Counted from the stretch's first letter, positions 149 through 63,029 are shown. The stretch is 64,000 nt of DNA from a phage (GCA_020241865.1 GCA_020241865.1_4709.1); one strand, 5' to 3'. The notes: generated from the letters alone by a model not told the origin. Numbers and translations: made by a program.

Positions 149-180
149 CCCTCTCCCTTCCCTGCTGGGTTGGGAGAGGG
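149..180. terminator. GC-rich hairpin (9-bp stem CCCTCTCCC/GGGAGAGGG, 14-nt loop) between convergent genes; member of the recurrent hairpin family
   Basis: Perfect inverted repeat 149-157/172-180; loop ttccctgctgggtt nearly identical to loops at 5290-5303 and 43785-43798; followed by CTTATGCTGTTATG. Confidence 0.6.
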
Positions 181-197
181 CTTATGCTGTTATGCTA

Positions 198-572
198 TTA
201 ATGTTCGTTCCAGATGGCATCTTCCGGTGGAACAATAGGATCTTTCTTCGGCATTGATGGCACTTCATGGCGATGTTTACGGAACTGCCTATCAATAACC
301 TCACGAAGCCGGTACGCATCAACCCATGTTGATTTATTGAACAGCTCCAATGTCACAGTTAATCGTGTTCTTGACATTGAATAGCTTTTCTTTGCAATCA
401 AATTGGGATAATTCAGTTGAGCGAACCACGCACGTATTTGTGCTTCGGTAAAAGCGATGCTGTAATAACTAAGTTTACCGTCATTAAAATCGTGCGCGTG
501 GGTGTAACGTCCAGCGTAACGCCAGACAAGATGCACATTCAGATCGATCCATGGTGGGGTGGTATCAGCCAT
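198..572 (-). CDS. hypothetical protein
   Basis: 124-aa ORF with ATG start, tightly packed with co-oriented neighbours; no recognisable motif. Confidence 0.5.
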   Translation of the reverse strand: MADTTPPWIDLNVHLVWRYAGRYTHAHDFNDGKLSYYSIAFTEAQIRAWFAQLNYPNLIAKKSYSMSRTRLTVTLELFNKSTWVDAYRLREVIDRQFRKHRHEVPSMPKKDPIVPPEDAIWNEH

Positions 573-581
573 GTGTTACCC

Positions 582-1151
582 TCAACGATTCTTCATCACT
601 TTACCCAGGCTTTCGATATTATCCCAAAAGCGATTTTTACTTGGCGCATCGCCGACGATAACCGACATCAAATCACGACGTTCGCGACTGATGATGCCTT
701 GTGATTTCCAGATCACCATCGTCCAGCAAGCGGCCAGAACGAACAGATGGTTAATGCTCGGTTTGGTTTGCGCGATGAACGCAAGCCATGCCCAGATACC
801 GGTGTATACTAGCGTCACTAAAAAGAGCGAGATTGTTGCAACGACAACAACGAAGTTTTGGACAGCGGGTTGATTAGCGTTATCATGAATAGCGGTAAGA
901 TCAGGAAGATTACCTTCAACTGAACTCGTTTCATCGATTTCCAATTCTTCGATTTCTTTTCGTGTGTCAGGAGCTAATCCAGCATCATCGAGATGCTTTT
1001 TTAACCGCTGTATGCTTAATCGTTGACCGACAGGAATGTTGATGTTGTCGTAACTATTAAGCGCATCAACCAGGGAGCGTCCATCAACGAGAACCAAGCT
1101 CGCGGTACCCATCGTTTGCGGTTTTATTTTGTAAAGGTCTTTTACTTTCAT
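582..1151 (-). CDS. hypothetical membrane protein
   Basis: 189-aa ORF; long hydrophobic stretch (VVVVATISLFLVTLVYTGIWAWLAFIA ... FVLAACWTMVIW) consistent with two transmembrane helices. Confidence 0.5.
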   Translation of the reverse strand: MKVKDLYKIKPQTMGTASLVLVDGRSLVDALNSYDNINIPVGQRLSIQRLKKHLDDAGLAPDTRKEIEELEIDETSSVEGNLPDLTAIHDNANQPAVQNFVVVVATISLFLVTLVYTGIWAWLAFIAQTKPSINHLFVLAACWTMVIWKSQGIISRERRDLMSVIVGDAPSKNRFWDNIESLGKVMKNR

Positions 1152-1172
1152 GTAGACACCACCTCCAACGTG

Positions 1173-4547: not shown

Positions 4548-4578
4548 TATCTAACTTCAATTAAATTGAAGTTAGATA
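4548..4578 (-). terminator. 31-bp perfect palindrome (15-bp arms) overlapping the stop codon of 4561..5277; terminator or operator-like site
   Basis: tATCTAACTTCAATT-A-AATTGAAGTTAGATa with every position paired; on the minus strand it is followed by a U-rich tract (CUGUUUUAUCUG). Confidence 0.4.
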
Positions 4579-5277
4579 TTGTTTACCTCCAACAAACGAC
4601 GTTAACCAATTACCTGAAACAAGTTGCGATGCCCAGCCAGGCACTGCCCTACCGTTCTGGCTCATCACGTTACCTGCCCATCCCGGAAAACCAGGTCGGA
4701 AAATATATACTTGAATATGTGTTAAAGCGTTATCATTACCACCGCCAACAGCAACGTTACGACTCCCAGATGACGGGAAATATTCTTTTAAGAACAGAGG
4801 ATCGGTTGCTAATAAAGATGCGGGCCAAGGGTTCGCAGATGCATCAACATCGAATTCGGTCCATCGCCATTTACGTCCCGTGTCGAACCATGTCGATGTA
4901 CCACCACCCCTCACGACAAGATTGCGCGCATCATGGACATTATAAATTGATTCGATGTTACGCCATCCACCTTTTGCAGCGTTTGCTGCATAGCAAACCG
5001 CATTACCACCATTCTTCTTCTCGTAAACGGTTCGTTTGATATGAACACGGTCGATGAACGCTTCACCGTATTTGTTGACGAGCGTTTGTGCGATATCACG
5101 AAGATCGTGCATGTGAAAAGCGATGTCTTCGTTATGGAACCATGTTGTCTGGTTCCAGACGGTACCGTTTGGTTCGGCACACATCGATCGGATATTGTTG
5201 CGTTGATTAATCGCGATAAAACCCATTGTATACCTCGTTCCTATTCTCAAAAAGGAAATTTCATACGATGACGCCAT
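4561..5277 (-). CDS. small protein of the tail-fibre locus, paralog of 3808..4449
   Basis: Track ORF 4561..5313 trimmed to ATG at 5277 (MASSYEISF), because the first 12 codons are the translation of hairpin 5282..5311; the 3' arm of that hairpin (GGAGGAGC) sits 4 nt upstream of this ATG as a Shine-Dalgarno sequence. Confidence 0.55.
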   Translation of the reverse strand: MASSYEISFLRIGTRYTMGFIAINQRNNIRSMCAEPNGTVWNQTTWFHNEDIAFHMHDLRDIAQTLVNKYGEAFIDRVHIKRTVYEKKNGGNAVCYAANAAKGGWRNIESIYNVHDARNLVVRGGGTSTWFDTGRKWRWTEFDVDASANPWPASLLATDPLFLKEYFPSSGSRNVAVGGGNDNALTHIQVYIFRPGFPGWAGNVMSQNGRAVPGWASQLVSGNWLTSFVGGKQYLTSI

Positions 5278-5281
5278 AGCA

Positions 5282-5311
5282 GCTCCTCCTTCCCTTACGG
5301 GTTGGAGGAGC
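5282..5311 (-). terminator. GC-rich hairpin (8-bp stem GCTCCTCC/GGAGGAGC, 14-nt loop) between genes; its purine arm doubles as the ribosome-binding site of 4561..5277
   Basis: Inverted repeat 5282-5289/5304-5311; loop ttcccttacgggtt matches the loops of the hairpins at 149 and 43776. Confidence 0.55.
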
Positions 5312-5319: not shown

Positions 5320-5826
5320 TTACTTACTGATAACCTCAACGGAGTTGGGATCAGCGATCAATGCACGATCGGTAGAACAGTTGAAGAAGACCATACCAAC
5401 ACCATCACCGTTCGAGTTCAGGGTTGAACTTACATAAGACAGGGTTGGTTTATTCATGCGGTAGAAGCGTTCGCTGGTAGTGGTATTGAACCCCAGATCA
5501 ACGTAGTCTTTCACCGTGGTGTACAACTGTGTGGACTCGAAAACGGTTACCGGAGAGTCAACGGTAAACTGACTGCCTTCATCCACAACCAGAACTTTAT
5601 CGTTCCAGATTTCAGTGGTTGAAAACTTCGGTTTCCAGTGTTCGAATTCCTGGGTTGCGCCCCAGCAAGAATAAACAGCGAGATTGCTGTTCTTCTCAAC
5701 AGGTTTCAACCCCACCAGTTGTGTCAGGTCTTTATCCAGGTTCGGTAAGCCTTCCAGCGTAGCGCACCCACCCAGAGAAAGTACCATCAACATACCAAGA
5801 ACGATCGCGCAGAGTTTTTTCATCAT
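5320..5826 (-). CDS. putative lipoprotein (candidate receptor-blocking or superinfection-exclusion protein)
   Basis: Start placed at tandem ATG ATG (5821..5826) preceded by AAGGAAA; signal peptide MMKKLCAIVLGMLMVLSLGGC with lipobox-like LGGC; sits inside the receptor-binding locus. Confidence 0.6.
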   Translation of the reverse strand: MMKKLCAIVLGMLMVLSLGGCATLEGLPNLDKDLTQLVGLKPVEKNSNLAVYSCWGATQEFEHWKPKFSTTEIWNDKVLVVDEGSQFTVDSPVTVFESTQLYTTVKDYVDLGFNTTTSERFYRMNKPTLSYVSSTLNSNGDGVGMVFFNCSTDRALIADPNSVEVISK

Positions 5827-5874
5827 TAGATTTCCTTGTGTGTTAACGGAAGTGACTTCCATAAGGATTGATGA

Positions 5875-10001: not shown

Positions 10002-10046
10002 AAACGTAAACAGTCTTAACGACCGCATAAAATTCCGCGCATATTA

Positions 10047-10058
10047 CCCCCCCCCCCC
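10047..10058. repeat. C12 homopolymer (G12 on the minus strand) in an intergenic hairpin context
   Basis: 12 consecutive C, followed by TCGCTTCGTCGAGGTAGGGGAGG, which can pair with the C tract; 32 nt downstream of the stop of 10090..11859. Confidence 0.9.
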
Positions 10059-10089
10059 TCGCTTCGTCGAGGTAGGGGAGGATAACACT

Positions 10090-50174: not shown

Positions 50175-50732
50175 TTACTCCATCCATACTTCTTCGTCGT
50201 AATGATTTTCTATCGCATTACGCCAAAAACGCACGGTGTCCAAACTAATCGGTGCATAAAAATGCTGATCAACGCCGACATTAAGTCCGTTGGCCTTCGC
50301 TAACATACAGCGATGAATATGACCGAATAAATTAAAGTAGCCTGGGTTTCTTTCGCTGGGCTTATGGCAGAGCCAGTAGGATTCGTCATTGCTAATCGGT
50401 AGCACCAACGGATGTTCATAAACCGCAGCAAACCCCATACCGAGCAGTTTATCACGCCAAGCTTCGAAGCTTAACCCTGTTGCTCTGCATGCGTCTTCGT
50501 CCCAATTCCCCAATACCAATTGAACCTGGATATCAGAACGAATGGCTTCCACGAACTCGAACTTACCCCAATCACCTAAATGCCATAACACACTGTTCTT
50601 TGGAAGCTTATTGATGGCTTTCAGCATATGCTGGTTCATATCGGCGACGCTTGCGAACGGACGGCGTGAATACGTCCATGTACGCTCGCTATCAAAATGG
50701 GTATCCGATATAAAGAAGATGGGTGAGGTCAT
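50175..50732 (-). CDS. calcineurin-like metallophosphoesterase (Ser/Thr phosphatase-like)
   Basis: 185-aa ORF; ordered motifs DTHF (D-x-H), HLGDW (GD), GNWD (GNH(D/E)-like) and FGHIH (GH-x-H). Confidence 0.7.
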   Translation of the reverse strand: MTSPIFFISDTHFDSERTWTYSRRPFASVADMNQHMLKAINKLPKNSVLWHLGDWGKFEFVEAIRSDIQVQLVLGNWDEDACRATGLSFEAWRDKLLGMGFAAVYEHPLVLPISNDESYWLCHKPSERNPGYFNLFGHIHRCMLAKANGLNVGVDQHFYAPISLDTVRFWRNAIENHYDEEVWME

Positions 50733-52064: not shown

Positions 52065-52100
52065 CTCCTCCCCAGGAAAGGTGTGGGGAGGAGTTTTTAT
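52065..52100 (+). promoter_or_regulatory. terminator-like GC hairpin plus T5 tract in the 5' leader of the plus-strand helicase gene
   Basis: 9-bp stem CTCCTCCCC/GGGGAGGAG (52065-52073/52085-52093) followed by TTTTTAT; no plus-strand gene upstream, so an attenuator, insulator or leader structure is more likely than a gene-end terminator. Confidence 0.45.
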
Positions 52101-52128
52101 CATACATTCTATTAAATCGAGCGCGATT

Positions 52129-54210
52129 ATGTTGGATAGAATCAATCGTCTAATGAACCGAATAACGGTTAAAAATCAGAGTAACAATACCGTGCATATC
52201 GGGGGTATCGATGCCTGGCGTCTTTCAGATGACATTCAGCGAATATGGGGTACCTCCCGATTTATGAAACATATGTTTCGTAATTTCTCTTCTAGTGGAC
52301 TCAGCCTCCACAACTTTTACCTCCCCGATTTCGTTTATATTCTCGAGACGATCATCGAAGCAAAGAATACCCGCAGTAACAAACGCATGCTGAAACACCT
52401 TATTGAGGTACTGCTACAGGAAACCTGGTTGCAAAATACCACAATCGAGCAACCTGCAATCCTCGATAAAGCACGCATGAACAAAATGCTAACGCTCTCT
52501 TTGTTCGATTATCAAGATGAGTTTATCGACATCTATAACCGTAACGTACCTAAATATCGACTGAAAGGATACGTGTGCGCGATGGGTGCCGGTGCGGGTA
52601 AAACGATCACCGCGTTGGCATTAAGCGCCGCAATGAACGTCGATGTATTTGTGGTCTGCTGTCCTAAGAACACGATGCGTTCAGCATGGCAATCCGATGT
52701 ACACAAAGCCATCGTTGACCCTGCAACAGAAACCGCGTTCTGGTCAGATACGATGCCACCATCACAGCTGCAGAAAAGCGATAAGTACTATTTTCTGCAT
52801 TACGAATCGATGGGTTTATTAAACGATGTAATGATCAAGCATAAACGCACAGCGAAGCGCGTGTTGATCGTGGTTGATGAAAGCCATAACTTCAACGACA
52901 AGAACAGCCAACGTTCCCAACGACTGGTCGATCTCGTACAGACGATGCGTCAAACCATGAATGCGGATGTGCATGTCTTGTTTATGTCAGGTACGCCCGT
53001 TAAACAGATGGGTTCTGAGATGATCCCCTGTTTAGGTTGTATCGACCCGATGTTCCAAGGACAGGTGGTTGATAGCTTCAAAGCAATTTACGGTTTAACC
53101 AGCAGTCGCGCTAACGATATCCTCAGACATCGTCTTGGGTTCATGATGCATGTCGTACCTAAAGAAGCTTATCGTAAAACCCGGCCGGAAGTTCAGGATG
53201 TTTACGTGAAGCTCCCTAACGGTAGCGATTATACCATCTCAAGTATCCGCGACGACATGGCGATATTTGTACGCGATCGGGCGAAGTATTACAAGGATAA
53301 CTGGGGACACTACAGAAAGATTTTTGATGACGCCTTGGACTACTATCGTAAGACTATTCGTACCGACGGAGAACGTAAAGAGCTATCTCGATACGAATCG
53401 ATCGTCGCTCGTTTCCAGAAAGGTTACGATCCCGTCAGAGACAAAGAAGATGCGATGTTCTGCAATGCGTTTGAAAAACGTTCTATCATGCCGGTTCTTC
53501 CTTCCGATTTAAGGATTGCTTTCAAAGACGCCAAGAGTGTCATCAAGTACGTTGGGTTGAAAATTCAGGGTGAGGCGTTGGCCCGTGTTCTAGGTGCAGC
53601 CCGCATTCGGTGTCATGTCGATATGGTGGAGTACATCGACTTCGAGGGGTATATCAACAACGCTGAAGCCAAGGTGTTGATCTTCACGTCGTACGTTCAG
53701 GTGGTTGAGCGCGTCGACAACCTGCTTCGTGATGCGGGTTTCTTACCTGAACCCATTTACGGGAAGACCAACAAAAACATCAACCAGATACTTGCTCGCT
53801 TACGGGACGATCCTGACAGCGGTCCCGCTATCGCAACATTTGATAGTTTAGCTGAAGGGGTTCCAATGTTGATGTGTAACGTGGGTCTCTTCTTGAACAA
53901 TCCGTGGCGCTCATCCGATGAAATCCAGGCCATCAGCCGTCTCGACCGTGTAGGGCAAACACAACCCGTTCGGATTTATCGTTTCATGTTAGATACAGGA
54001 AGCGAGGGTAACGTTTCTACACGCAGCCACGAAATCATGGAGTTAAGCCGACAGCTTGTTGAAGAAATCACGGGTGTCAAATACGTGGTGAACAAGCAAG
54101 ACGATGTTAACTTGCAAGAAACGTTGGCGATGGAAGGATACGATCAATACGTTACCGTAAACACCACGGAATACGATATTAAACCACGACCTGCGTTCTT
54201 GGAATGGTGA
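52129..54210 (+). CDS. SNF2-family (SF2) helicase-like ATPase
   Basis: Walker A GAGAGKT, motif II DESH (VIVVDESHNF), motif III-like LFMSGTP, and SNF2-type motif VI QAISRLDRVGQ; start set at the first ATG after the leader hairpin (the track start is a GTG inside the hairpin). Confidence 0.7.
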   Translation: MLDRINRLMNRITVKNQSNNTVHIGGIDAWRLSDDIQRIWGTSRFMKHMFRNFSSSGLSLHNFYLPDFVYILETIIEAKNTRSNKRMLKHLIEVLLQETWLQNTTIEQPAILDKARMNKMLTLSLFDYQDEFIDIYNRNVPKYRLKGYVCAMGAGAGKTITALALSAAMNVDVFVVCCPKNTMRSAWQSDVHKAIVDPATETAFWSDTMPPSQLQKSDKYYFLHYESMGLLNDVMIKHKRTAKRVLIVVDESHNFNDKNSQRSQRLVDLVQTMRQTMNADVHVLFMSGTPVKQMGSEMIPCLGCIDPMFQGQVVDSFKAIYGLTSSRANDILRHRLGFMMHVVPKEAYRKTRPEVQDVYVKLPNGSDYTISSIRDDMAIFVRDRAKYYKDNWGHYRKIFDDALDYYRKTIRTDGERKELSRYESIVARFQKGYDPVRDKEDAMFCNAFEKRSIMPVLPSDLRIAFKDAKSVIKYVGLKIQGEALARVLGAARIRCHVDMVEYIDFEGYINNAEAKVLIFTSYVQVVERVDNLLRDAGFLPEPIYGKTNKNINQILARLRDDPDSGPAIATFDSLAEGVPMLMCNVGLFLNNPWRSSDEIQAISRLDRVGQTQPVRIYRFMLDTGSEGNVSTRSHEIMELSRQLVEEITGVKYVVNKQDDVNLQETLAMEGYDQYVTVNTTEYDIKPRPAFLEW

Positions 54211-54215
54211 TTAAG

Positions 54216-54250
54216 AAGCTCTGCCTGACATCAGGCAGAGCTTTATGCTG
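54216..54250 (+). terminator. hairpin immediately after the helicase stop, followed by TTTATGCTGTAT and a 22-codon mini-ORF
   Basis: 10-12-bp stem GCTCTGCCTG/CAGGCAGAGC; downstream ATG at 54245 opens an ORF (MLYLLQDRMTYMRCIYLIRQNK) whose TGA overlaps the ATG of the fibre gene at 54310. Confidence 0.55.
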
Positions 54251-54309
54251 TATTTGTTGCAAGATCGTATGACGTATATGCGTTGTATTTATTTAATAAG
54301 GCAGAATAA

Positions 54310-55764
54310 ATGAAACTTAAACAAAGCTGGAAAGACGAACTTCTCGCGTTAGTAAACAGCAAAAACAGTTTACAACTGACATTAGACGATGTAAAATTTG
54401 AACTAACGGCACCGGTAAGCGAAGTGCCTGGAACGGTCGTTGTTACAATCAAACCGAACGATAATAGTCGCTACTTTAACGAGCAGTCTCTGACCTACAT
54501 CCGTCGAGACATCGCTAAAAACTTCACTGGGATCCCGTTACGGGTCATCGTTAAAAAAGATACCGCTGTAAGGGATATCATCAATACGATTGCTGAACGT
54601 TACGGATTGGTATTTGACACAGCCGTCGACTTCCTCGAATCCGAGCTGAATAAACAAATTACGTTCGCAGACACCGGTATTAAAGACATTACGGTTCCGG
54701 TTGCAAACACGTCTTATGTTTGGGCGGGTAATCTTCAGTTCAATATTGCTAACGATACGTTAAGCTTGATTACTATCATCAAGAAAACCGATCTTACGAA
54801 TCTGGTTTATCTGGATGGTGTTGAAGCTGACACATCTGGTTCGTTACTATTAGCAACCGCAGCACTTGTTAACGAACACGTAAATGAACCGATGGTTGAA
54901 AACGAAGATATCGTTAATGAATTTATTAACGTTCTTAATACTCTAGCCAAATATGGTGACATAACCGGCGATGAATTAGATGCCGCCTTACAAGCGTACG
55001 ATGAAGCAGAAAACAGGAATAAAACCACGGTAATAACTCTTGGTGATATCCAGTGTGTTGCAACAGAAAAAGACGATTGGGAAATTGGACGTTTACGCGG
55101 TCAGATGGTTCTCGCGCTCAAATCCGATAAATACCCGGAGCCCGATAACACGTTCAGGTTGTTTACGAATGGTGGTGACGTATCGCTAACGTTAAACACA
55201 ATGAAAGATATAAGTATCGATTGGGGTGATGGGAATAAAGTAACGTTGGATGCTGAAGAAAGATACGCGCACCACACATACGCCGACAATAACCAGTACC
55301 AAATCGAAATTGTGTCTCGTACGGACCCAGATGTGCTGCGACCAAATTATATTTCTGGGAGTGAGATAACCGAAGTAATTCACTGGGCTACTACTTCAAC
55401 AATAGCTCTGAATTTTGTTGGATGCGATAATTTAGCGACTGTTCCAGATGAGATCCCAACTTCGTGGACAACGTTGGACAGCATGTTTGAAAGTTGTACG
55501 AATTTGAATGATCCGTCTATCTCTAACTGGAATACAAGTAACATCACATCAATGAATGGTATGTTCGGCGGATGCACTAAATTTAACCAACCTTTAGCTG
55601 CCTGGGATGTCAGCTCAGTAACTGACATTGGTGGTATGTTTAACGGATGCAACAGTTTTAACCAAGATTTAAGTGGGTGGCGATTACCGTCAGGAGTAAC
55701 CCACGACAATTACGATAGTGGTGCTTTCTCGTGGCAGACGGAACATAAACCGACGTTCCAGTAA
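54310..55764 (+). CDS. tail fibre with shared N-terminal anchor module and C-terminal DUF285 (BspA-like) repeats, displaced from the main fibre locus
   Basis: 484-aa ORF; N-terminus SWKDELLALVNSKNSLQLT ... YIRRDIAKNFTGIPLRVIV ... YGLVFDTAVDFL; C-terminus FESCTNLNDPSISNWNTSNITSMNGMF, WDVSSVTDIGGMFNGCNSFNQDLSGW. Confidence 0.75.
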   Translation: MKLKQSWKDELLALVNSKNSLQLTLDDVKFELTAPVSEVPGTVVVTIKPNDNSRYFNEQSLTYIRRDIAKNFTGIPLRVIVKKDTAVRDIINTIAERYGLVFDTAVDFLESELNKQITFADTGIKDITVPVANTSYVWAGNLQFNIANDTLSLITIIKKTDLTNLVYLDGVEADTSGSLLLATAALVNEHVNEPMVENEDIVNEFINVLNTLAKYGDITGDELDAALQAYDEAENRNKTTVITLGDIQCVATEKDDWEIGRLRGQMVLALKSDKYPEPDNTFRLFTNGGDVSLTLNTMKDISIDWGDGNKVTLDAEERYAHHTYADNNQYQIEIVSRTDPDVLRPNYISGSEITEVIHWATTSTIALNFVGCDNLATVPDEIPTSWTTLDSMFESCTNLNDPSISNWNTSNITSMNGMFGGCTKFNQPLAAWDVSSVTDIGGMFNGCNSFNQDLSGWRLPSGVTHDNYDSGAFSWQTEHKPTFQ

Positions 55765-55818
55765 AAAAAAAAATAGTTAGCATATCTTCCTCCCTACCCA
55801 TAACGGGCGGGGAGGAAG
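55763..55818. terminator. bidirectional terminator between convergent genes (A11 tract plus GC hairpin plus GTTTTATGG)
   Basis: A11 at 55763-55773 (U11 for minus-strand transcripts), then stem CTTCCTCCC/GGGAGGAAG (55786-55794/55810-55818) with an inner CCC/GGG pair, followed by T-rich sequence on plus. Confidence 0.7.
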
Positions 55819-55836
55819 GTTTTATGGCGTTATGAC

Positions 55837-56175
55837 TTAGAACCAGAGTTCTTTCATGAAGTAGGCTTCCGTATCGTAGATAAGCCACTCATCAGGGATT
55901 TCTAAAGGATCGTCTTCGGTTAAGGTGAGCATGTGCAGGGCGAACGCACGCTTAATATCTTCCAACAGCTTATCATCACCGTAACCTTCGGGTAGTTTAC
56001 GGTCAGCCAGCTGAGTTTGTTTATAGACATCGCGGAACGCTTCAGGGCTGTGTTTATCCATCGGAAATTGTTCAGCAGCCTGAACCATAGAAAGCGTCCA
56101 GCTTACAACATTGTAACGCTCACCGTTAATTTCACTGAACTTATCATCGATTAAACAGATTTGTTGTATATTCAT
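55837..56175 (-). CDS. hypothetical protein
   Basis: 112-aa ORF; ATGA overlap with the upstream gene. Confidence 0.45.
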   Translation of the reverse strand: MNIQQICLIDDKFSEINGERYNVVSWTLSMVQAAEQFPMDKHSPEAFRDVYKQTQLADRKLPEGYGDDKLLEDIKRAFALHMLTLTEDDPLEIPDEWLIYDTEAYFMKELWF

Positions 56176-57133: not shown

Positions 57134-59395
57134 TTACAATTCAAAATCTTCATCGATAACGCGCTGGGTAAGCACTTTGTCGCTGAAGAACTCCACCTTG
57201 CGCTGATGGTATTTACGATGTGCTTCTATCGAAGTACATACCAGATACCAGAACGTTGGTGTCATTCCTTCAAACTTCCCTTTCAGCTGACGTAGCCGTC
57301 CCAACACCTGAATGTTACCGGTTCGTGACCCCATCGCTAACGTCATGAACGTCATCACCAAGTCAGGAAGGTCGATGCCCGTACCTGCCGATTTCACGGT
57401 TGTAACGCTAATATCGTTATCCAACAAGACCATGAAATCTTCTTCAGCAGTATAAGGACCAATCTCTAACTCAGGAATACGTTCACTGAGATAATGCGAC
57501 AACGACTTACACATATCGACGGTTGCACAATACACCAGCATCTTCATACCTTCCTGATACTGGTTCATGAAACCTTTGATTATAACGGTATAGATGAAGT
57601 TAAAGTACGCGAGTTTGAGTTGCTTGTTCTTCATGATAGACTGTTCGAATATCGTGTGAGAATAAGAACCCCCAAAGCCTTTGTATCTGACTTTATCTGT
57701 ACTGCGTAGTCGATACGTCACGGCATTTACCGCAATGTATTTCTTGTATTCGCCTTTTGCATAACGGGCTTCTTTCGGATACATCAAATACAACATCCGC
57801 TCGATGAATGGATCGTCGGACACCGCCGTTGCTGACAGATAGATGATTTCCGGAATACTAGCGTAACACTTGACCTTAAACAAGAAATGCAATGCTTCAT
57901 GGCACTCGTCATGAATCAGAAGGCCTATGCCGGTCTTTTCCCAAAACTCGGCGGGATGGAAGGCATATGGCGCAACGCAGTTATTCTTCTCGTAGTCCGC
58001 AATATAACGTTGGAACATGTTCAAGGAGAACAATGCGATTTTGAAGTCGAGTTCACCTTGTTCAACCAAGGTTTGAAACTCCAACATACTGTAACGAGGA
58101 ATGTCGGGATGCGGTGGATCCTCCTTAGCGTTCCCGCGTATCTCGATAACATCCCCTGGTTCCATCCCGAAGAAGTTCAGCAGTGAGCTTCGCCAACCTG
58201 GCATATACCGCGGAGAAAGTATAATACCTGTGCGTACACCCCGCCTAAACACGATTTCCTGCGACATCGCGGTGTTATGCGTGACGATGTGGTCTTTAAT
58301 AACATAAAGGCTTTCGTCATTGTCCACCGTGATACAACGTGCTTTCGATTTCACCGTCGGCACGATGCTATCAATCGCTAAACCAGGAAGTCGGTTAACG
58401 GGGAGATCGTCTGGAATCTCAATGTCGTCAGGAATAAGCTTACGCAAATCGGAATGGTAAATTAATGTCACCATTATGTAACTATCAATGGGGTATTTAT
58501 ACGCAATTCCTCCTAACTGATAAGCCAACTCCCAGACCTTGGCTGTTATCTGCGAATTGACGGTTCTGACCGCAAGGTGAGCTTCCCCGTTTTTGATTCT
58601 CAGTTCACAACGACCTTTGATTACCGCCTTAAATTCCTCGAGACCGACGAGTTCTTTCGGTTCGTAAAGTCGGATTCTTACTGGACGAGATCGAGCAGGT
58701 CTGTCGTAAATACATTCCATGATTTCGTCCGTACTGAGAACTTTATCAGGGTCAGTACACTGCCAGAGATGATCACCACACGCTTCAACCATCCTACCGT
58801 CCTCAAAGAAGATAGCATAAAGCTGAATATCGTCATGATCAAATATAGCGGTTACGTTCGTCGGTAACCCATCCGCACCAATAACCTGATCCCCTAACTG
58901 AAGCTCGCCAATCGGCTTCCAACCGCCTGGAACCTTCACAGGTGTATTAAGCGGAATTGCTTTTCCTGACCCTGTTTGAGCGGTGTTTAGGCTCATTCTG
59001 AAGGGGGTATCCTTACCCCCGTCCATGTACTCCAACCATTCTTGCTGATCTTGACGCCATGGAAACTTCCATTTCTTTACGAACTCCACTTCTTTACCTG
59101 GTACCGGATCGTGATAGACGATTTCCAACCACTCTTTTCGTATCCCTCGAGAAAAGATAAAATCCAAAAACGATTTCAACTGTTCACGGAGTAAGTATAC
59201 CTCGCTATAATCGCTTCTTGCCGCGGCATACGTGTTTATGGTATCGGTAACCATTCTCCGTGTACGAGGGTCACGCCGTTTCCTCAGATGCAAACAACGG
59301 TCTCGAAGGTAATGGCCGATAAGATGGGCAAATCGAAGTCCGTATCCGCTCAGCCTCATGCCATGCGAGAAGACGTCGATACGAGCTAACTTCAT
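57134..59395 (-). CDS. SF2 DExH-box helicase/ATPase interrupted by an in-frame intein in the Walker A motif
   Basis: 753-aa ORF; Walker A is split as TGSGK / intein / T, which would read TGSGKT after splicing; motif II LLIHDECHEA downstream; start overlaps the stop of the upstream gene (ATGA). Confidence 0.75.
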   Translation of the reverse strand: MKLARIDVFSHGMRLSGYGLRFAHLIGHYLRDRCLHLRKRRDPRTRRMVTDTINTYAAARSDYSEVYLLREQLKSFLDFIFSRGIRKEWLEIVYHDPVPGKEVEFVKKWKFPWRQDQQEWLEYMDGGKDTPFRMSLNTAQTGSGKAIPLNTPVKVPGGWKPIGELQLGDQVIGADGLPTNVTAIFDHDDIQLYAIFFEDGRMVEACGDHLWQCTDPDKVLSTDEIMECIYDRPARSRPVRIRLYEPKELVGLEEFKAVIKGRCELRIKNGEAHLAVRTVNSQITAKVWELAYQLGGIAYKYPIDSYIMVTLIYHSDLRKLIPDDIEIPDDLPVNRLPGLAIDSIVPTVKSKARCITVDNDESLYVIKDHIVTHNTAMSQEIVFRRGVRTGIILSPRYMPGWRSSLLNFFGMEPGDVIEIRGNAKEDPPHPDIPRYSMLEFQTLVEQGELDFKIALFSLNMFQRYIADYEKNNCVAPYAFHPAEFWEKTGIGLLIHDECHEALHFLFKVKCYASIPEIIYLSATAVSDDPFIERMLYLMYPKEARYAKGEYKKYIAVNAVTYRLRSTDKVRYKGFGGSYSHTIFEQSIMKNKQLKLAYFNFIYTVIIKGFMNQYQEGMKMLVYCATVDMCKSLSHYLSERIPELEIGPYTAEEDFMVLLDNDISVTTVKSAGTGIDLPDLVMTFMTLAMGSRTGNIQVLGRLRQLKGKFEGMTPTFWYLVCTSIEAHRKYHQRKVEFFSDKVLTQRVIDEDFEL
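58274..58960 (-). mobile_element. intein (about 229 aa, Ala1 ... His-Asn, +1 Thr) inserted in the helicase P-loop
   Basis: Begins AIPLNTPVKVPGGWKPIGELQLGDQVIG (Hint block A-like) and ends ITVDNDESLYVIKDHIVTHN followed by T (blocks F/G with terminal HN); no LAGLIDADG or HNH motif recognised in the middle. Confidence 0.7.
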
Positions 59396-61398
59396 AACGT
59401 GATTACATCCTCCGGTTTAGGTTCTTTACGCGGTAACAGCATGTAGTCGATCGGATGATCCGGCTTCATGGTTGGGATATAACTGTTCGGGTTTTGGAAC
59501 GCATCCAGTTGCTCTTGGTGAGCGAACTTCATACTCAAGGAGCGCATGTTCATGTTCTTCTTGAAGGTACTGAAGTATCGTGTTGTTCCCTGTTTCGGCA
59601 TGCGATAATCTTTCGTGTGTGGCGAACGAATCATGCTGGCGTAGAGAATAACGTCGAGATGCGAAAGGTTCATTCGCAGACGCTGGGCACACAGACGATG
59701 CCAATAATACAGCACGTTTGCAACTTCTTCCGGTGTTGCTTCGTCTTCCGAGAGGAATCCGGCACTGAAAGAACCTTTCCCGAATTTGAACTCACGTTCG
59801 ATTTCTTTTGCGTATTCCATCATGTTTTTGTGGATTAACGGCATCTGGAATAACGTACGTGAATTGTCCCAATGTTTCAAGTCGAAAATCACAATCCCGT
59901 CAGACGTCACTTCCCAGCTATGGCGTTTAAGATAACGGATAAACGCTTTACTCGGTACAACAGGACGACCGCAGAAATCGAAATTGACTTTGAGCTTACG
60001 ATAGCTTTCATCTTTCCTGTCGTAAATCTCCATATCGCAAAGCGTCATGTTAAACAAACGTTGCGGTATCAGCGAACTGATTTCTTCCGCTTCGGCTACA
60101 TCGTACAACATGTTCGCAAGACCTAACTTCATCTTAATCAGCACGTGTTTACCTTTCAGCTCACGTGCGAGTTTGATGTCGTTCATGTTCTGGCTGTAGC
60201 GAAGGATATGTTGATATTCAGGTGGGATTGGTGCTGTGGATACCGTTGACGAACCATCGTGGTGTTTGGTAGAAAGAATGTTCTGCGTTACCTGTTGCGA
60301 GCAGGTACGCGCTGCACCATCGCCGACATTATCGGTTAGTGCGAAGTTATGACTTAATTCACCGTAACACGTTGTACATACCCCAGCAGGATCGGGATGA
60401 TGGCAATAGTTAACGGAGCGCATGCGTACCGTCGTACCAATCAATTCTTTCATGTGTGGTTGTATCGCTACCAACGAACCGTCATCACGAATAATGAATC
60501 GACCATGGAAGCCACGCAGGTCGGTCTCATCGCGGATTGGCATCGGGATGGTCTCTTTACTACCACAATCACCAGGATGGAGTCGTTGCACGACCGCTGT
60601 CGCTATCTGAAGTTCACGACCGAAGTATTCAGACTTCTTGATCTGCTCTTTGTTAAACAACAACGATTTTGCCGCAGAACGGCTTTCTTTCAAGCTGTCG
60701 GGAAGAGAGATCAAACCTGCCGCGTATGACCGCATTACTGGATCACGGAATATCTCGGAGTTAATATCAGTCAAGAATCCACGCATCCCAATACACTGTA
60801 GCACCTGCCCAATCGAAACGTGTTCGGTTCTTACCGCACGTGCAATAGGGTTTGCATGTAACGTTTTATCGGTGCTCAGTACCTTGGTCAGTTTCTTGTA
60901 TGCGCTTTCGATACCTTCACGGGTGGGTTCCGCTTCGGCGATGATTTTCTTAACTTCGGGGTGTACAGTAATCTGATAAAAATCATCCGCGCAAATCGTT
61001 GTTACGTATTCCTCCAACGCATACGTAAAGAAGTTATACACATTGTTAAACATATCGAACAATGCTTTCCAGAGAACCTCACGATTCTCTTGTGGGTAAG
61101 CATACATGCATTGACGATACGCGGCGCTTTGCAACGCAACCGATGAACCCGCTGTGAACTTGCGTTTATCAACCAGGTTCTCTTTTGTCAGTGGTGTCTC
61201 AGGATACATGCGATGCACAGACCAGTGCATGTAACTAAAGAAAATGCGTCGCGCACGTAATTCATGAACGCCATCGTCCATCTCGATATATACGCGGTCA
61301 TTAGGCTGTGCCCACTCGAATACCTCATCAACCGGCCAGTGCATAAGCTCGCGTGCCCTCACACGACGTTTCGTGGTGGTCGTCTGTGTTGTAGTCAT
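59392..61398 (-). CDS. large hypothetical protein with Cys/His cluster, translationally coupled to the helicase
   Basis: 668-aa ORF; CHHPDPAGVCTTCYG cluster; function not recognised. Confidence 0.5.
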   Translation of the reverse strand: MTTTQTTTTKRRVRARELMHWPVDEVFEWAQPNDRVYIEMDDGVHELRARRIFFSYMHWSVHRMYPETPLTKENLVDKRKFTAGSSVALQSAAYRQCMYAYPQENREVLWKALFDMFNNVYNFFTYALEEYVTTICADDFYQITVHPEVKKIIAEAEPTREGIESAYKKLTKVLSTDKTLHANPIARAVRTEHVSIGQVLQCIGMRGFLTDINSEIFRDPVMRSYAAGLISLPDSLKESRSAAKSLLFNKEQIKKSEYFGRELQIATAVVQRLHPGDCGSKETIPMPIRDETDLRGFHGRFIIRDDGSLVAIQPHMKELIGTTVRMRSVNYCHHPDPAGVCTTCYGELSHNFALTDNVGDGAARTCSQQVTQNILSTKHHDGSSTVSTAPIPPEYQHILRYSQNMNDIKLARELKGKHVLIKMKLGLANMLYDVAEAEEISSLIPQRLFNMTLCDMEIYDRKDESYRKLKVNFDFCGRPVVPSKAFIRYLKRHSWEVTSDGIVIFDLKHWDNSRTLFQMPLIHKNMMEYAKEIEREFKFGKGSFSAGFLSEDEATPEEVANVLYYWHRLCAQRLRMNLSHLDVILYASMIRSPHTKDYRMPKQGTTRYFSTFKKNMNMRSLSMKFAHQEQLDAFQNPNSYIPTMKPDHPIDYMLLPRKEPKPEDVITL

Positions 61399-62029: not shown

Positions 62030-62143
62030 AATCTCATTTCCTCTTATACGTTAGGATAGATGACATGTTGGATATACGTTGCCTTTGCATATATTGCTTT
62101 ATTTCCGTCAGAAATAACGGAAAATAAAAACAACGACATAGTT

Positions 62144-62173
62144 CCCTCCCACCTCCACATGGGAGAGGGAGGG
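62144..62173 (-). terminator. hairpin of the recurrent family (CCCTCCC/GGGAGGG with inner CC/GG pairing)
   Basis: 7-bp stem 62144-62150/62167-62173; on plus it is followed by TATTCGTGTTTATTACTCTATGCTG. Confidence 0.5.
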
Positions 62174-62186
62174 CTATTCGTGTTTA

Positions 62187-62549
62187 TTACTCTATGCTGT
62201 CTTCTTCAGCACAATCCTCTTCTGAACCGTCGAACGTTTTCTGCACTGCAGTGGTATCCCAGTTGGCAGCGTAATCAGCCATCGCTTCGCGCAGCGCTTC
62301 TTCACCGGCATCACCAGCCAGGTCAAGCACAACCAAACCTTGCGCGACGTTTTGAGCAACTGTATCAATAACGGTTGCATCTTCTTCAAAACTACGTACC
62401 GGTTCAATGGTGCCTACATCAACAGCATAGTTCGTGGTCGCTGTAAGCACGGCGACTTGTAGCGCATCGCTATCTTCATCATGCAATGCTGCTTCAATAC
62501 CGATTGGACGGACCAGTTCTTGCAGAGTTAATTTGCGAATTAAGTTCAT
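62187..62549 (-). CDS. small highly acidic protein, paralog of 63041..63451
   Basis: 120-aa ORF rich in D/E; the AQGLVVLDLAGDAGEEALREAM segment parallels ARGLMLLELFGEQGRTELQSEL in 63041..63451. Confidence 0.5.
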   Translation of the reverse strand: MNLIRKLTLQELVRPIGIEAALHDEDSDALQVAVLTATTNYAVDVGTIEPVRSFEEDATVIDTVAQNVAQGLVVLDLAGDAGEEALREAMADYAANWDTTAVQKTFDGSEEDCAEEDSIE

Positions 62550-62570
62550 TATATTTTCCTCAGGTGAATG

Positions 62571-62921
62571 TTAGCAATCGTTTAAAACTTTTTCGATACG
62601 ATGGTTGACGAATTCATTGAACGACTCTTCGGCTTGTTCGATAATTTCATCAACGTCGATATCTAATTGTTGGGGTTGGATAACATGCTCTTTCATGGTT
62701 TCTAGCCAGTATTCGGCTTTAACCATAACGTTAGCGACTTGTTCGACCTGACTGCGTATGTCGACGATCTGGCAATCAGGATTGTTAATATCGATGATGT
62801 GTCCGTGGTGTTTGATAAACCCTAACTTATTCGACGCCCTTACCGCATCGCGGGCAAGCTCTTGCAAGATTAAATTATTTACATAGTTCACTGCTATGGA
62901 ACGATTTTCTTTATCACTCAT
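62571..62921 (-). CDS. small acidic protein
   Basis: 116-aa ORF. Confidence 0.45.
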   Translation of the reverse strand: MSDKENRSIAVNYVNNLILQELARDAVRASNKLGFIKHHGHIIDINNPDCQIVDIRSQVEQVANVMVKAEYWLETMKEHVIQPQQLDIDVDEIIEQAEESFNEFVNHRIEKVLNDC

Positions 62922-63000
62922 ACCAGGGATCCTCTTTTAAGTGTTCACATTCTAGTGTTAAGCAGTTAAAATAAACCGTCCCTTTAATCAGCATAAACAT

Positions 63001-63029
63001 CCTCCTCCCACCACATAGGCAGGAGGAGG
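63001..63029 (-). terminator. hairpin of the recurrent family (CCTCCTCC/GGAGGAGG) followed on the minus strand by ATGTTTATGCTG
   Basis: 8-bp stem; a 28-codon mini-ORF starting at ATGTTTATGCTG ends overlapping the start of 62571..62921. Confidence 0.55.

What the first reader, a model, noticed from the sequence alone, without database searches (positions are those of the whole stretch)
149..63029. Recurrent GC-rich hairpin family with covarying stems and a conserved TTTATGCTG tail that often opens a mini-ORF
At least 12 intergenic hairpins share one architecture: a pyrimidine arm (CCCTCCC-like), a loop, a purine arm (GGGAGGG-like), then (G)TTTATGCTG. Stems differ by compensatory changes, for example CCCTCTCCC/GGGAGAGGG at 149, CCCTCCTCC/GGAGGAGGG at 43776 and GCTCCTCC/GGAGGAGC at 5282, all with near-identical 14-nt loops; this is the covariation expected of a functional RNA structure. 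Other copies are at 18260, 25464, 42174, 50147, 54216, 55786, 62144 and 63001, with a variant at 10047-10080. The purine arm is a perfect Shine-Dalgarno sequence and the tail supplies an ATG 3-5 nt later, opening short ORFs that stop at or overlapping the next gene's start (24788, 49833, 54310, 62571). The elements may therefore act both as intrinsic terminators and as structured translation-initiation or coupling sites; they do not match canonical U-tract terminators.
Basis: seen in the sequence. Interest (0 to 1): 0.65.

Follow-up and report, generated by a model that had tools for sequence, protein, structure and literature searches.

The report
phiKZ-type transcription terminators in Goslar-like phage
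The repeated GC-rich hairpins followed by TTATGCTG are the sequence-conserved transcription terminators already mapped experimentally in phiKZ-like giant phages, here found in an E. coli relative (a Goslar-like phage); the small reading frames they seem to open are most likely incidental.

Summary
The window comes from a jumbo phage about 94% identical to Escherichia phage Goslar, a nucleus-forming phage with its own RNA polymerases. Thirteen intergenic hairpins carry 16 tails, because three are two-sided, and TATG is invariant in every tail (consensus TTATGCTGT). Fifteen of 50 strong-hairpin sides have TATG within 0-5 nt, against 0.9 expected.

Fifteen of 16 tails lie 4-21 nt after a same-strand stop codon, and both convergent gene pairs carry tails on both strands. 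The architecture matches the terminator motif mapped by 3'-end sequencing in phiKZ (BCCYCCCC-loop-GGGRRGG-BYTTATKYYGT) and 201phi2-1. I found the same tail in phiKZ, 201phi2-1 and Erwinia phage RAY, but not in the SPN3US stretch examined or on the T-run side of T4 hairpins.

So the terminator reading is supported, by motif identity rather than by RNA data. The mini-ORF and translational-coupling reading is not: ORF lengths are erratic (3-41 aa), stops near the next start are no more frequent than chance, and indels in two close relatives break the pattern.

The open point is that the invariant TATG equals the core of the phiKZ late promoter, which the phage polymerase binds directly. Verdict: new member of a known kind, modest interest.

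The parts
141..190 (.). Two-sided terminator between convergent genes (plus-strand gene ends at 132; minus-strand gene 198..572 ends at 198). Hairpin 149-180, CCCTCTCCC-TT-CCC-tgct-GGG-TT-GGGAGAGGG. Plus-strand tail cTTATGCTGT at 181-190; minus-strand tail TTATGTTA at 148-141.
   Evidence: -25.9 / -23.4 kcal/mol. The Goslar record annotates the orthologue as a putative terminator. The loop segment is inverted relative to Goslar.
5275..5311 (-). Hairpin 5282-5311 (GCTCCTCC...GGAGGAGC), 8 nt after the stop of 5320..5862. Tail is tgCTATG. Here the tail ATG (5277-5275) is the likely start codon of ORF 4561..5277, and the purine arm is its Shine-Dalgarno sequence.
   Evidence: -21.0 kcal/mol. The downstream gene is absent from Goslar.
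10036..10082 (-). Variant hairpin (CCTCCCCTaCCTCG-acgaag-CGAGgGGGGGGGG), 7 nt after the stop of 10090..11859, with tail taATATGCGCGG. One arm is a G12 homopolymer.
   Evidence: -32.9 kcal/mol, z -4.25. The Goslar orthologue has a different stem sequence but still folds (-24.3 kcal/mol) and keeps the same tail.
18251..18284 (-). Hairpin 18260-18284, 14 nt after the stop of 18299..18796 (cell-wall hydrolase homologue). Tail TTTATGCTG at 18259-18251. The next gene starts at 18205.
   Evidence: -18.9 kcal/mol. Loop inverted relative to Goslar.
25456..25484 (-). Hairpin 25464-25484 (ACCCTCCCG-gca-CGGGAGGGT), 4 nt after the stop of 25489..25917. Tail TTATGCTG. The next gene starts at 25438.
   Evidence: -16.4 kcal/mol. 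Goslar has CTTATGCCG and a 2-nt deletion downstream.
31578..31620 (-). Imperfect hairpin 31587-31620 (GCCTGTG-t-CCC-t-CCC...GGG-c-GGG-CACGGGC), 17 nt after the stop of 31638..32270. Tail gTTATGCCG.
   Evidence: -24.8 kcal/mol, z -3.2. Conserved in Goslar with tail TTATGCTG.
42165..42196 (-). Hairpin 42174-42196 (AAGCCTCCC-gtaat-GGGAGGCTT), 11 nt after the stop of 42208..42756. Tail TTATGCCGT. This is the only copy that fits the fixed-length phiKZ IUPAC motif, with 2 mismatches.
   Evidence: -16.1 kcal/mol. The Goslar record annotates the orthologue as a putative terminator.
43768..43817 (.). Hairpin 43776-43807, a near-copy of the one at 149. Minus-strand tail TTATGTTC lies 9 nt after the stop of 43817..44131 and 18 nt before the start at 43753. 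A second tail, aATATGCTGT, sits on the plus strand, where no convincing gene arrives.
   Evidence: -25.9 / -23.4 kcal/mol. Loop inverted relative to Goslar. The minus-strand ORF 43454..43753 shows only synonymous differences from Goslar.
50138..50164 (-). Hairpin 50147-50164 (CCCTCCC-ttcg-GGGAGGG), 10 nt after the stop of 50175..50732. Tail TTTATGCTG. The next gene starts at 50108.
   Evidence: -14.0 kcal/mol. Conserved in Goslar and in the IMG/VR phage 3300011560, where the tail is TTTATGCCG.
54216..54251 (+). Hairpin 54216-54243 (AAGCTCTGCCTG-acat-CAGGCAGAGCTT), 5 nt after the stop of helicase gene 52081..54210. Tail (TT)TATGCTGT. The next gene starts at 54310.
   Evidence: -21.4 kcal/mol. 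Annotated as a putative terminator in Goslar, where the tail reads TTCATGCTG. The tetraloop is inverted in the IMG/VR relative.
55778..55829 (.). Two-sided terminator between convergent genes 54310..55764 (+) and 55837..56175 (-). Hairpin 55786-55818. Plus-strand tail gtTTTATGGCG; minus-strand tail aTATGCTA.
   Evidence: -23.1 / -23.5 kcal/mol. The hairpin and both TATG are identical in three phages, although the upstream gene is only 61% identical in protein.
62134..62173 (-). Hairpin 62144-62173, 13 nt after the stop of 62187..62549. Tail aaCTATGTCG. The 31-aa ORF opened by the tail ATG is annotated as Goslar_00167.
   Evidence: -20.4 kcal/mol. Identical in Goslar.
62989..63029 (-). Hairpin 63001-63029 (CCTCCTCCtgcc-tatgt-ggtgGGAGGAGG), 11 nt after the stop of 63041..63451. 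Tail atgTTTATGCTG. The next gene starts at 62921.
   Evidence: -22.9 kcal/mol. One loop substitution relative to Goslar.

Best explanation
These elements are factor-independent transcription terminators of the type described for phiKZ-like (chimallivirus) jumbo phages. Each is a strong GC-rich RNA hairpin, usually with a pyrimidine-rich 5' arm and a purine-rich 3' arm. A short, sequence-conserved tail, (T)TTATG-YYG-T, follows immediately in place of a long U run.

They punctuate the long same-strand gene arrays of this Goslar-like phage and stop transcription from both sides where genes converge.

Shown here:
- the family exists;
- it is far more frequent than chance;
- it sits just after stop codons, in the direction of transcription;
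- it is conserved between relatives;
- its sequence matches the experimentally mapped phiKZ and 201phi2-1 terminators.

Inferred:
- RNA 3' ends form in or just after the UUUAU segment, because hairpin folding destabilises a weak rU:dA-rich hybrid.
- The conserved tail is read by the phage's own multisubunit RNA polymerases rather than by host factors. The reason is that the same tail occurs in phages of Pseudomonas, Erwinia and Escherichia.
- The ATG inside the tail is a by-product of the TATG signal, not a designed start codon. The 5282 site is the exception, where it coincides with a real gene start.
For: Identity of the phage: the window is 93.9% identical over 12 kb to Goslar, a Chimalliviridae phage with phage-encoded RNAP subunits.

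Published motif: in phiKZ, 61 terminators defined by ONT-cappable-seq share BCCYCCCCHWWDGGGRRGGBYTTATKYYGT (PMC10914365). A similar motif occurs in 59 terminators of 201phi2-1, eight terminators of which were tested in a terminator trap (PMC11512511).

Within the window:
- 16 tails all contain TATG, with consensus TTATGCTGT.
- Enrichment is 13-15 tailed hairpin sides against 0.4-0.9 expected.
- 15 of 16 tails lie 4-21 nt downstream of a same-strand stop codon (the 31590 distance was counted by hand).
- Both convergent junctions (149, 55786) carry tails on both strands. Single-direction sites mostly carry the tail on the sense side only.

Other phages scanned the same way:
- phiKZ: 18 of 38 hairpin sides (1.04 expected), including literal TTTATGCTGTT tails. 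Two of its three convergent junctions carry TATG tails on both sides of a single hairpin; the third has two adjacent hairpins, each tailed on one side.
- 201phi2-1: the convergent gp230/gp231 junction has ACGACATAA-hairpin-TTTATGCTGTT.
- Erwinia phage RAY: CATAA-hairpin-TTATGCTGC followed by a T9 run, at three sites.

BLAST of one element: full-length matches (hairpin plus tail) came only from Goslar and phiKZ-like Pseudomonas jumbo phages, at 8-16 places per genome. Other phages matched the hairpin core alone.

Conservation between close relatives:
- The 55786 hairpin and both tails are identical in three phages despite a 61%-identical neighbouring gene.
- The 10047 hairpin has a different sequence in Goslar but still folds and keeps its tail.
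- The Goslar record itself annotates several of these hairpins as putative terminators.
Against: - No RNA-end data exist for Goslar or this phage, so termination is inferred from motif identity and position.
- Only one copy fits the published fixed-length IUPAC motif within 3 mismatches, because loops here are 3-16 nt rather than 4.
- The 43776 element has a tail on a strand from which no convincing gene arrives.
- In Goslar the 54216 tail is TTCATGCTG, so TATG is not absolute.
- About ten other intergenic hairpins lack the tail, so it is not required for every terminator.
- The 50-kb stretch of the chimallivirus SPN3US that I scanned shows T-run tails and almost no TATG (1 of 32), so the tail is not universal in the family.
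- I could not build a covariance model, because MAFFT does not align hairpins of variable length in register.
Confidence: 0.8

Rival explanations
1. Terminator-promoter modules. The tail's TATG is a working late promoter for the non-virion RNA polymerase, with the start at the G. Each element would then end one transcript and start the next, possibly without the polymerase leaving the DNA. This is compatible with the main explanation; it adds a second function.
For: - The phiKZ late-promoter consensus is T(-3)ATG(+1). Each of the four bases is needed in vitro (PMC4666361), and the beta-like subunit GP123 binds the non-template TATG (PMC12809450).
- TATG is invariant in the 16 tails and usually lies 0-3 nt after the stem.
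- Ten tails are followed by a same-strand gene start 18-108 nt downstream of the G, similar to the 31-40 nt typical phiKZ 5' UTR (PMC8244752).
- TATG is among the 2-6 most under-represented of 256 tetramers on both strands in the window, Goslar, phiKZ and SPN3US. In T4 it ranks 68 and 17.
Against: - At the convergent junctions examined (2 in the window, 3 in phiKZ, 1 in 201phi2-1, 2 in RAY), TATG tails face both ways, in most cases on the two sides of one hairpin. A promoter there would only make antisense RNA.
- No tailed hairpin lies at the divergent junctions examined, where promoters are needed.
- The model late promoter P119L has no upstream hairpin and a different downstream sequence, TATGTAGACAG.
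- The phiKZ motif allows T in place of G (TTATK).
- The papers that mapped transcription starts do not report hairpins in the late-promoter motif.
Confidence: 0.2
2. The purine arm acts as a Shine-Dalgarno sequence and the tail ATG opens a translated mini-ORF. Termination of that mini-ORF at the next start codon couples translation to the downstream gene.
For: - GGAGG-like arm with an ATG 2-6 nt later at all sites.
- Three mini-ORFs stop in an ATGA overlap with the next start (25464, 31590, 54216), one stops 2 nt before it (50147) and one 8 nt after it (63001).
- At 5282 the tail ATG is very likely a real gene start.
- One mini-ORF (62144, 31 aa) is annotated as a gene in Goslar.
Against: - Mini-ORF lengths are 3-41 aa and four stop far from any start.
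- The base rate for any off-frame reading to stop within -8 to +2 nt of a start in this window is 24% overall and 39% in the relevant frame.
- Indels of 2 nt (Goslar, 25464) and 1 nt (IMG/VR relative, 54216) destroy the arrangement, and 5 of 10 codons change amino acid at 50147.
- Tails at convergent sites cannot serve any downstream gene.
- The SD-like arm is buried in a stem of -14 to -26 kcal/mol.
- Terminated transcripts would end before or at the ATG. Transcripts started at the G of TATG would lack it.
- In RAY the stem polarity is reversed (purine arm first), so no SD precedes the tail, yet the tail is kept.
Confidence: 0.05
3. An RNA-level signal other than termination. The 3' hairpin plus conserved tail would be a processing site, a stability element or a protein-binding tag, for example for export of mRNA from the phage nucleus.
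For: - The conserved primary sequence beyond what a generic terminator needs, shared across phages of three host genera, suggests recognition by a conserved phage protein.
- Nucleus-forming phages must export mRNA, and an RNA-binding protein (ChmC) with no defined motif is known (10.1101/2023.09.22.559000).
Against: - ChmC binding peaks lie near start codons, not at 3' ends.
- If RNAs end in the UUUAU segment, most of the conserved tail (GCUGU) is not in the RNA. That points to a DNA- or polymerase-level signal.
- There is no direct evidence.
Confidence: 0.08
4. Mobile or recombinogenic repeat. The hairpins would be REP-like or PeSL-like cassettes that spread in the genome and mediate gene shuffling, with transcriptional effects being secondary.
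For: - Three copies (149, 5282, 43776) share an inner helix and flanks.
- Loop segments are flipped between close relatives at four sites.
- Three whole-gene differences from Goslar lie next to hairpins.
Against: - Most copies have unrelated stem and loop sequences and share only the functional consensus.
- Positions are orthologous and stable between three relatives.
- The strict placement after stop codons and the orientation with transcription are what terminators need, not what mobile repeats show.
- Loop flipping is a common mutational property of any perfect inverted repeat.
Confidence: 0.05

Closest known systems
Conserved intrinsic terminator motif of Pseudomonas phage phiKZ, 5'-BCCYCCCCHWWDGGGRRGGBYTTATKYYGT-3' (Putzeys et al. 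2024, microLife, PMC10914365), and 'motif A' of 201phi2-1 terminators (PMC11512511)
   Same: - Pyrimidine-rich arm, loop, purine-rich arm, then TTAT-G/T-YY-GT; literal TTTATGCTGTT tails occur in both.
- Placed shortly after genes.
- Two-sided copies at convergent genes.
- The host phage is a chimallivirus with its own multisubunit RNA polymerases.
   Different: - Loops here are 3-16 nt, often with an inner helix, instead of about 4 nt, so only 1 of 13 sites fits the fixed-length motif.
- G after TTAT is invariant here, where phiKZ has K.
- The host is E. coli and genome GC is 45% against 37%.
- No RNA-end data exist for this lineage.
Canonical bacterial intrinsic (Rho-independent) terminators
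   Same: A GC-rich hairpin followed at once by a T-rich segment (TTTAT), located after genes. ARNold classed the phiKZ examples as intrinsic terminators (PMC10914365).
   Different: There is no run of 5 or more T. The T tract is interrupted after 2-3 T by a conserved A-T-G-Y-Y-G. A simple hairpin-plus-T-run scan recovers only one of them. Real T4 terminators in the control have T runs and no TATG on that side.
phiKZ late promoter of the non-virion RNA polymerase, T(-3)ATG(+1) (Yakunina et al. 2015, PMC4666361; structure in PMC12809450)
   Same: The same four bases, TATG, are invariant in the tails. In the promoter they are read on the non-template strand by the beta-like subunit.
   Different: The promoter needs no hairpin; P119L has none within 200 nt upstream. 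The tails occur facing gene ends at convergent junctions, where a promoter has no gene to serve. Whether any tail fires as a promoter is unknown.
PeSL (promoter-early stem-loop) cassettes of T4-type phages.
   Same: Repeated intergenic stem-loop plus transcription signal, lying next to variable genes.
   Different: PeSLs pair a sigma-70 early promoter with a stem-loop and are proposed to drive recombination. Here the signal is a terminator tail, and sigma-70-like promoters are depleted.

Membership tests
phiKZ-type conserved terminator (Putzeys 2024) | GC-rich stem-loop, typically with a CCYCCCC-like 5' arm and a GGGRRGG-like 3' arm | tested here: met
   13 sites, -14 to -33 kcal/mol. The 5' arm is 77-100% pyrimidine at 10 of the 12 sites where measured the correct hairpin; the exceptions are 42174 (67%) and 54216 (58%). 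The coordinates used for the 31590 site were off, so its value is not counted.
phiKZ-type conserved terminator (Putzeys 2024) | Tail TTATKYYGT directly after the stem | tested here: met
   TATG is present in 16 of 16 tails, at offsets of 0-5 nt. Consensus is TTATGCTGT, with C 10/15, T 10/15 and G 11/15 at the three positions after TATG.
phiKZ-type conserved terminator (Putzeys 2024) | Match to the full 30-nt IUPAC motif (4-nt loop) | tested here: inconclusive
   Only 42165-42194 (minus strand) matches within 3 mismatches. The others differ in loop length, not in arm or tail composition.
phiKZ-type conserved terminator (Putzeys 2024) | Located downstream of genes with short 3' UTRs; two-sided copies between convergent genes | tested here: met
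   15 of 16 tails lie 4-21 nt after a same-strand stop codon. Both convergent junctions carry tails on both strands.
phiKZ-type conserved terminator (Putzeys 2024) | Host genome is a chimallivirus with virion and non-virion multisubunit RNA polymerases | tested here: met
   93.9% nucleotide identity to Goslar. Orthologues of genes annotated as RNAP beta-like subunits lie in the window, e.g. 59392..61398.
phiKZ-type conserved terminator (Putzeys 2024) | RNA 3' ends map at the element (the operational definition used in the papers) | not testable with these tools
   No transcriptome data for Goslar-like phages were found in the library.
Canonical intrinsic terminator | Hairpin followed by a U run (at least 5 T in 8) | tested here: not met
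   In 40-60 kb the scan finds 17 sites against 17.1 expected. Of the tailed hairpins only 50147 qualifies.
phiKZ late promoter (nvRNAP) | TATG with transcription starting at the G | tested here: inconclusive
   TATG is present in every tail, but the start site cannot be tested. Tails at convergent junctions argue that the motif serves termination there.
SD-led upstream mini-ORF / translational coupling | Accessible ribosome-binding site, and a reading frame and stop position conserved between relatives | tested here: not met
   The SD-like arm is paired. Frame and stop position are changed by indels in Goslar and in the IMG/VR relative. Proximity of the stop to the next start is within the base rate.

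The most novel reading that the evidence does not exclude
The terminator tail works because it contains the polymerase's own promoter core. The non-virion RNA polymerase keeps its sigma-like subunit permanently, and its beta-like lobe binds non-template TATG. It would therefore recognise TATG during elongation just as the hairpin forms. That recognition would cause a sequence-specific pause, replacing the long U tract in termination, and would leave the enzyme positioned on T(-3)ATG(+1).

At same-strand gene boundaries it could then restart at the G without leaving the DNA (termination-coupled re-initiation). Long gene arrays would be cut into separate mRNAs in this way.

The terminator papers I read do not mention TATG (0 occurrences in each). 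In the searches I ran, no paper connects the terminator tail to the late-promoter core.
Probability: 0.2. Interest if true: 0.7.

Novelty: new member of a known kind. Interest (0 to 1): 0.3.

Why it matters
For annotation, these 13 sites, and their equivalents across Goslar-like genomes, can be labelled as transcription-unit boundaries. They also give a simple search rule: a strong hairpin followed within 0-5 nt by TATGYYG.

For biology, the same tail occurs in phages of Pseudomonas, Erwinia and Escherichia, but not in the SPN3US stretch examined or on the T-run side of T4 hairpins. This argues that the termination signal is read by the phage-encoded polymerases, and that it diverges between chimallivirus lineages.

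The coincidence with the four-base late-promoter core, together with genome-wide avoidance of TATG, gives a concrete and testable lead. It bears on how these unusual polymerases, whose termination mechanism has not been described in the papers I found, stop and perhaps restart.

For engineering, such elements are candidate insulators orthogonal to host-type terminators.

Tried and rejected
1. Covariance model of the copies. MAFFT placed the two arms out of register by one column, because stem and loop lengths differ. No model was built; I used an explicit hairpin-plus-tail scan instead.
2. MFE-based hairpin census with a -11 kcal/mol cut-off. It was far too permissive, giving hundreds of long imperfect folds inside genes, and was dropped.
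3. Rfam (0 hits) and tRNA scan (0) on the window.
4. The tail-only pattern TTATGYYGT as a cross-phage marker. It is poorly specific: 7 hits in T4-like Phi1. It also missed RAY, whose tails end in C.
5. Supplementary tables of the phiKZ and 201phi2-1 transcriptome papers, which would have let me check whether transcription starts coincide with tail TATGs. None are held. Ceyssens 2014 is not held either.
6. Distant relatives of the esterase gene (42-48% protein identity). The gene is followed directly by the next gene with no hairpin, so terminator positions are not conserved at that distance.
7. T4-like Phi1 as a negative control failed, because the locus file did not reach the script sandbox. 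T4 was used instead.
8. A mobile-element reading and a translational-coupling reading were considered and rejected for the reasons given under the rival explanations.


Full report
What the window is. A 12-kb piece of the window is 93.9% identical to Escherichia phage vB_EcoM_Goslar (237 kb). No other phage in the GenBank phage collection matches at that level. Goslar is a nucleus-forming jumbo phage of the Chimalliviridae. Its record carries genes annotated as RNA-polymerase beta-like subunits, and a handful of features labelled 'putative transcriptional terminator'. Nearly all genes in the window are on the minus strand.

Checking the observation. The exact 9-mer TTTATGCTG occurs six times against 0.49 expected. 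Four of these are on the minus strand.

When each element is read in the direction in which a tail follows the hairpin, there are 16 tails, because three hairpins have one on each strand. In an alignment of the 16, the only invariant columns are T-A-T-G. The wider consensus is TTATGCTGT.

Among 25 perfect GC-rich hairpins with stems of 7 bp or more (50 strand-sides), 13 have TATG within 0-4 nt. Thirty dinucleotide shuffles gave a mean of 0.43 and a maximum of 2. Fifteen have it within 0-5 nt against 0.93 expected, and TATG is the commonest 4-mer after hairpins. So the family is real and far beyond chance.

The '14-nt loops' of 149, 5282 and 43776 are an inner CCC/GGG helix with a tetraloop. 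And roughly ten other intergenic hairpins have no such tail.

Where the elements sit. Fifteen of 16 tails lie 4-21 nt downstream of a stop codon on the same strand (17 nt for the 31590 site, counted). Ten are followed by a same-strand gene start. The two junctions where genes converge (149-180 and 55786-55818) carry a tail on both strands. Single-direction sites mostly carry it only on the sense side. No tailed hairpin lies at the one divergent junction (51921-52128); the hairpin there has a TTTTTATC tail. This is the layout expected of terminators, not of promoters or translation signals.

What is known. ONT-cappable-seq of phiKZ mapped 133 termination regions. Sixty-one predicted intrinsic terminators share 5'-BCCYCCCCHWWDGGGRRGGBYTTATKYYGT-3', described as a stem-loop followed by a TTAT region (PMC10914365). 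The same type of motif was found in 59 terminators of 201phi2-1, and eight terminators of that phage were tested in a terminator trap (PMC11512511). That is the architecture seen here.

I checked this directly against other phages:
- A 50-kb piece of phiKZ has 18 of 38 hairpin sides with a TATG tail (1.04 expected). These include literal TTTATGCTGTT. Its three convergent junctions all have TATG-tailed hairpins facing both directions, two of them as a single two-sided hairpin and one as two adjacent hairpins.
- 201phi2-1 has ACGACATAA-hairpin-TTTATGCTGTT between convergent gp230 and gp231.
- Erwinia phage RAY has CATAA-hairpin-TTATGCTGC followed by a T9 run at three sites, with the stem polarity reversed.
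- A BLAST of one element gave full-length matches (hairpin plus tail) only in Goslar and phiKZ-like Pseudomonas jumbo phages, at 8-16 places per genome. Other phages matched the hairpin core alone.
- By contrast, 50 kb of the chimallivirus SPN3US shows similar pyrimidine/purine hairpins with T-run tails (…TTTAT…T) and TATG in only 1 of 32 sides.
- In T4, the four TATG cases among 24 sides are all on the side opposite the T run, at offsets of 3-5 nt.
- The fixed-length phiKZ IUPAC motif hits only one window copy within 3 mismatches, because loops here are longer.

Evidence from close relatives. Against Goslar, most elements are conserved at or above the local average. Four things stand out.

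First, the 10047 hairpin has a quite different stem sequence in Goslar. It still folds (-32.9 versus -24.3 kcal/mol), and the tail ATATGCGCGG is unchanged.

Second, the 55786 hairpin with both tails is identical in the window, in Goslar and in a third phage from IMG/VR (3300011560, 237.5 kb). This holds although the gene ending there is only 61% identical in protein and the sequence after TTTATG diverges.

Third, the segment between the stem arms is inverted between relatives at 149, 18260 and 43776 (versus Goslar) and at 54216 (versus the IMG/VR phage). For example, TTCCCTGCTGGGTT becomes AACCCAGCAGGGAA. This preserves the fold, but it is a flip, not a pair of compensating point mutations.

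Fourth, TATG is not absolute: Goslar reads TTCATGCTG at the 54216 site.

It cannot be counted as evolutionary covariation.

The mini-ORF idea. ORFs opened by the tail ATG are 3-41 aa long. Five of the nine that are out of frame with the next gene stop within -8 to +2 nt of its start. Three of these stop in an ATGA overlap: 25464, 54216 and 31590 (the last once the likely true start is used). In this densely packed genome, however, 24% of arbitrary off-frame readings opened 20-80 nt upstream of a start do the same. In the relevant frame the figure is 39%.

The arrangement is not conserved:
- A 2-nt deletion in Goslar puts the 25464 ATG in frame with the gene.
- A 1-nt insertion in the IMG/VR phage ends the 54216 mini-ORF about 20 nt early.
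- Five of ten codons of the 50147 mini-ORF change amino acid in that phage.

Tails at convergent junctions open ORFs that run antisense into the neighbouring gene. The SD-like arm is paired in a stem of -14 to -26 kcal/mol. In RAY the purine arm comes first, so no SD precedes the conserved tail. The one site where the ATG probably is a start codon is 5277, for a gene absent from Goslar. I conclude that the ATG is a by-product of the TATG signal.

How it most likely works. I take these to be factor-independent terminators for the phage's own polymerases. The hairpin forms in the nascent RNA and the following UUUAU gives a weak hybrid. That the elements mark RNA 3' ends is shown for phiKZ and 201phi2-1 and inferred here. 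The conservation of A-T-G-Y-Y-G, beyond what a generic terminator needs and across phages of three host genera, points to recognition by conserved phage machinery. This step is inference.

An open lead. TATG is also the complete consensus of phiKZ late promoters, T(-3)ATG(+1). Every base is needed in vitro (PMC4666361). The motif is bound on the non-template strand by the beta-like subunit GP123 of a polymerase whose sigma-like subunit is permanently attached (PMC12809450). The two terminator papers never mention TATG.

TATG is among the 2-6 most under-represented of 256 tetramers on both strands in the window, Goslar, phiKZ and SPN3US (z -4.4 to -6.7). In T4 it ranks 68 and 17. So the polymerase may read the tail as it reads a promoter. 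That could cause a pause that aids termination, or could allow an immediate restart at the G.

Against a pure promoter role: the tails at convergent junctions in four genera, the absence of tailed hairpins at divergent junctions, and the model promoter P119L, which has no hairpin and a different downstream sequence. I could not test whether transcription starts coincide with tails, because the supplementary tables are not held.

Verdict. This is a new member (the Goslar lineage, E. coli host) of a known kind of element. Interest is modest. The main residual value is the untested link between the terminator tail and the polymerase's promoter core.

Noticed in passing
149-180, 18260-18284, 43776-43807 (versus Goslar); 54228-54231 (versus IMG/VR 3300011560, L089): The segment between the two stem arms is inverted (reverse-complemented) between very close relatives at four hairpins. 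For example, TTCCCTGCTGGGTT in the window is AACCCAGCAGGGAA in Goslar. Hairpin-mediated flips appear frequent in this lineage and can mimic compensatory change.
   Followed up: partly
4561-5277 (-), 10090-11859 (-), about 41152-42110 (ORF 41216..42199, -): Three whole genes present in the window but not in Goslar each abut a terminator hairpin. They are a 238-aa protein with no Pfam match, a 589-aa protein with DUF285 and DUF7941, and a protein with DUF7448. Homology to Goslar breaks about 54-63 nt beyond the 5282 and 42174 hairpins, which suggests moron-like gene gain or loss at transcription-unit boundaries.
   Followed up: partly
21575-21596 (-) and 51961-51982 (-): A 22-nt motif, CACGGCTATATTACYTAGGTGA, occurs twice (0 expected), each time upstream of a minus-strand gene. 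It is a candidate early promoter for the virion RNA polymerase: jumbo-phage early promoters are conserved AT-rich motifs of about 10 nt (PMC7598289).
   Followed up: partly
52065-52093 (+): A strong hairpin (CTCCTCCCCA...TGGGGAGGAG) with a TTTTTATC tail lies in the divergent intergenic region, about 34 nt upstream of the helicase gene start. Goslar annotates it as a terminator. It may be a 5'-UTR (premature) terminator or the end of a small RNA, as reported for phiKZ T102.
   Followed up: no
10048-10059: A C12 homopolymer (G12 on the coding strand) forms one arm of the 10047 hairpin. Goslar has CCCCTCTACCC there instead. The run is prone to slippage and could also be a sequencing artefact.
   Followed up: no
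whole window; 40000-59999 for promoters: GATC is the most under-represented tetramer (z about -10), and TATG/CATA rank 4-5 of 256 (z about -6). Sigma-70-like promoter matches are depleted (23 found against 39.7 +/- 6.6 in shuffles), in keeping with a phage that does not use host RNA polymerase.
   Followed up: partly
54310-55764 (+): This 484-aa protein is only 61% identical to its counterparts in Goslar and in the IMG/VR relative, while the flanking DNA is about 95% identical. It is a fast-evolving or exchanged gene of unknown function.
   Followed up: no
43454-43753 (-) versus 43604-43837 (+): Goslar annotates the plus-strand ORF here (Goslar_00145). The two window/Goslar differences seen in the first 69 nt of the minus-strand ORF are both synonymous in that frame. 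The minus-strand gene is therefore probably the real one.
   Followed up: partly
16403-16445 (-), 17900-17936 (-), 21166-21189 (-), 35190-35208 (-), 39892-39911 (-), 42809-42832 (-), 57081-57102 (-): A second set of intergenic hairpins lacks the TATG tail. The 16403 hairpin is followed by a long T run (TATTTTTTCGTTTTTTTTTT), like a canonical terminator. The phage seems to use more than one terminator type, as reported for 201phi2-1.
   Followed up: no
23549-23557 (+): This exact TTTATGCTG has no hairpin and lies antisense inside gene 23447..24046. It may be chance or an antisense signal.
   Followed up: no
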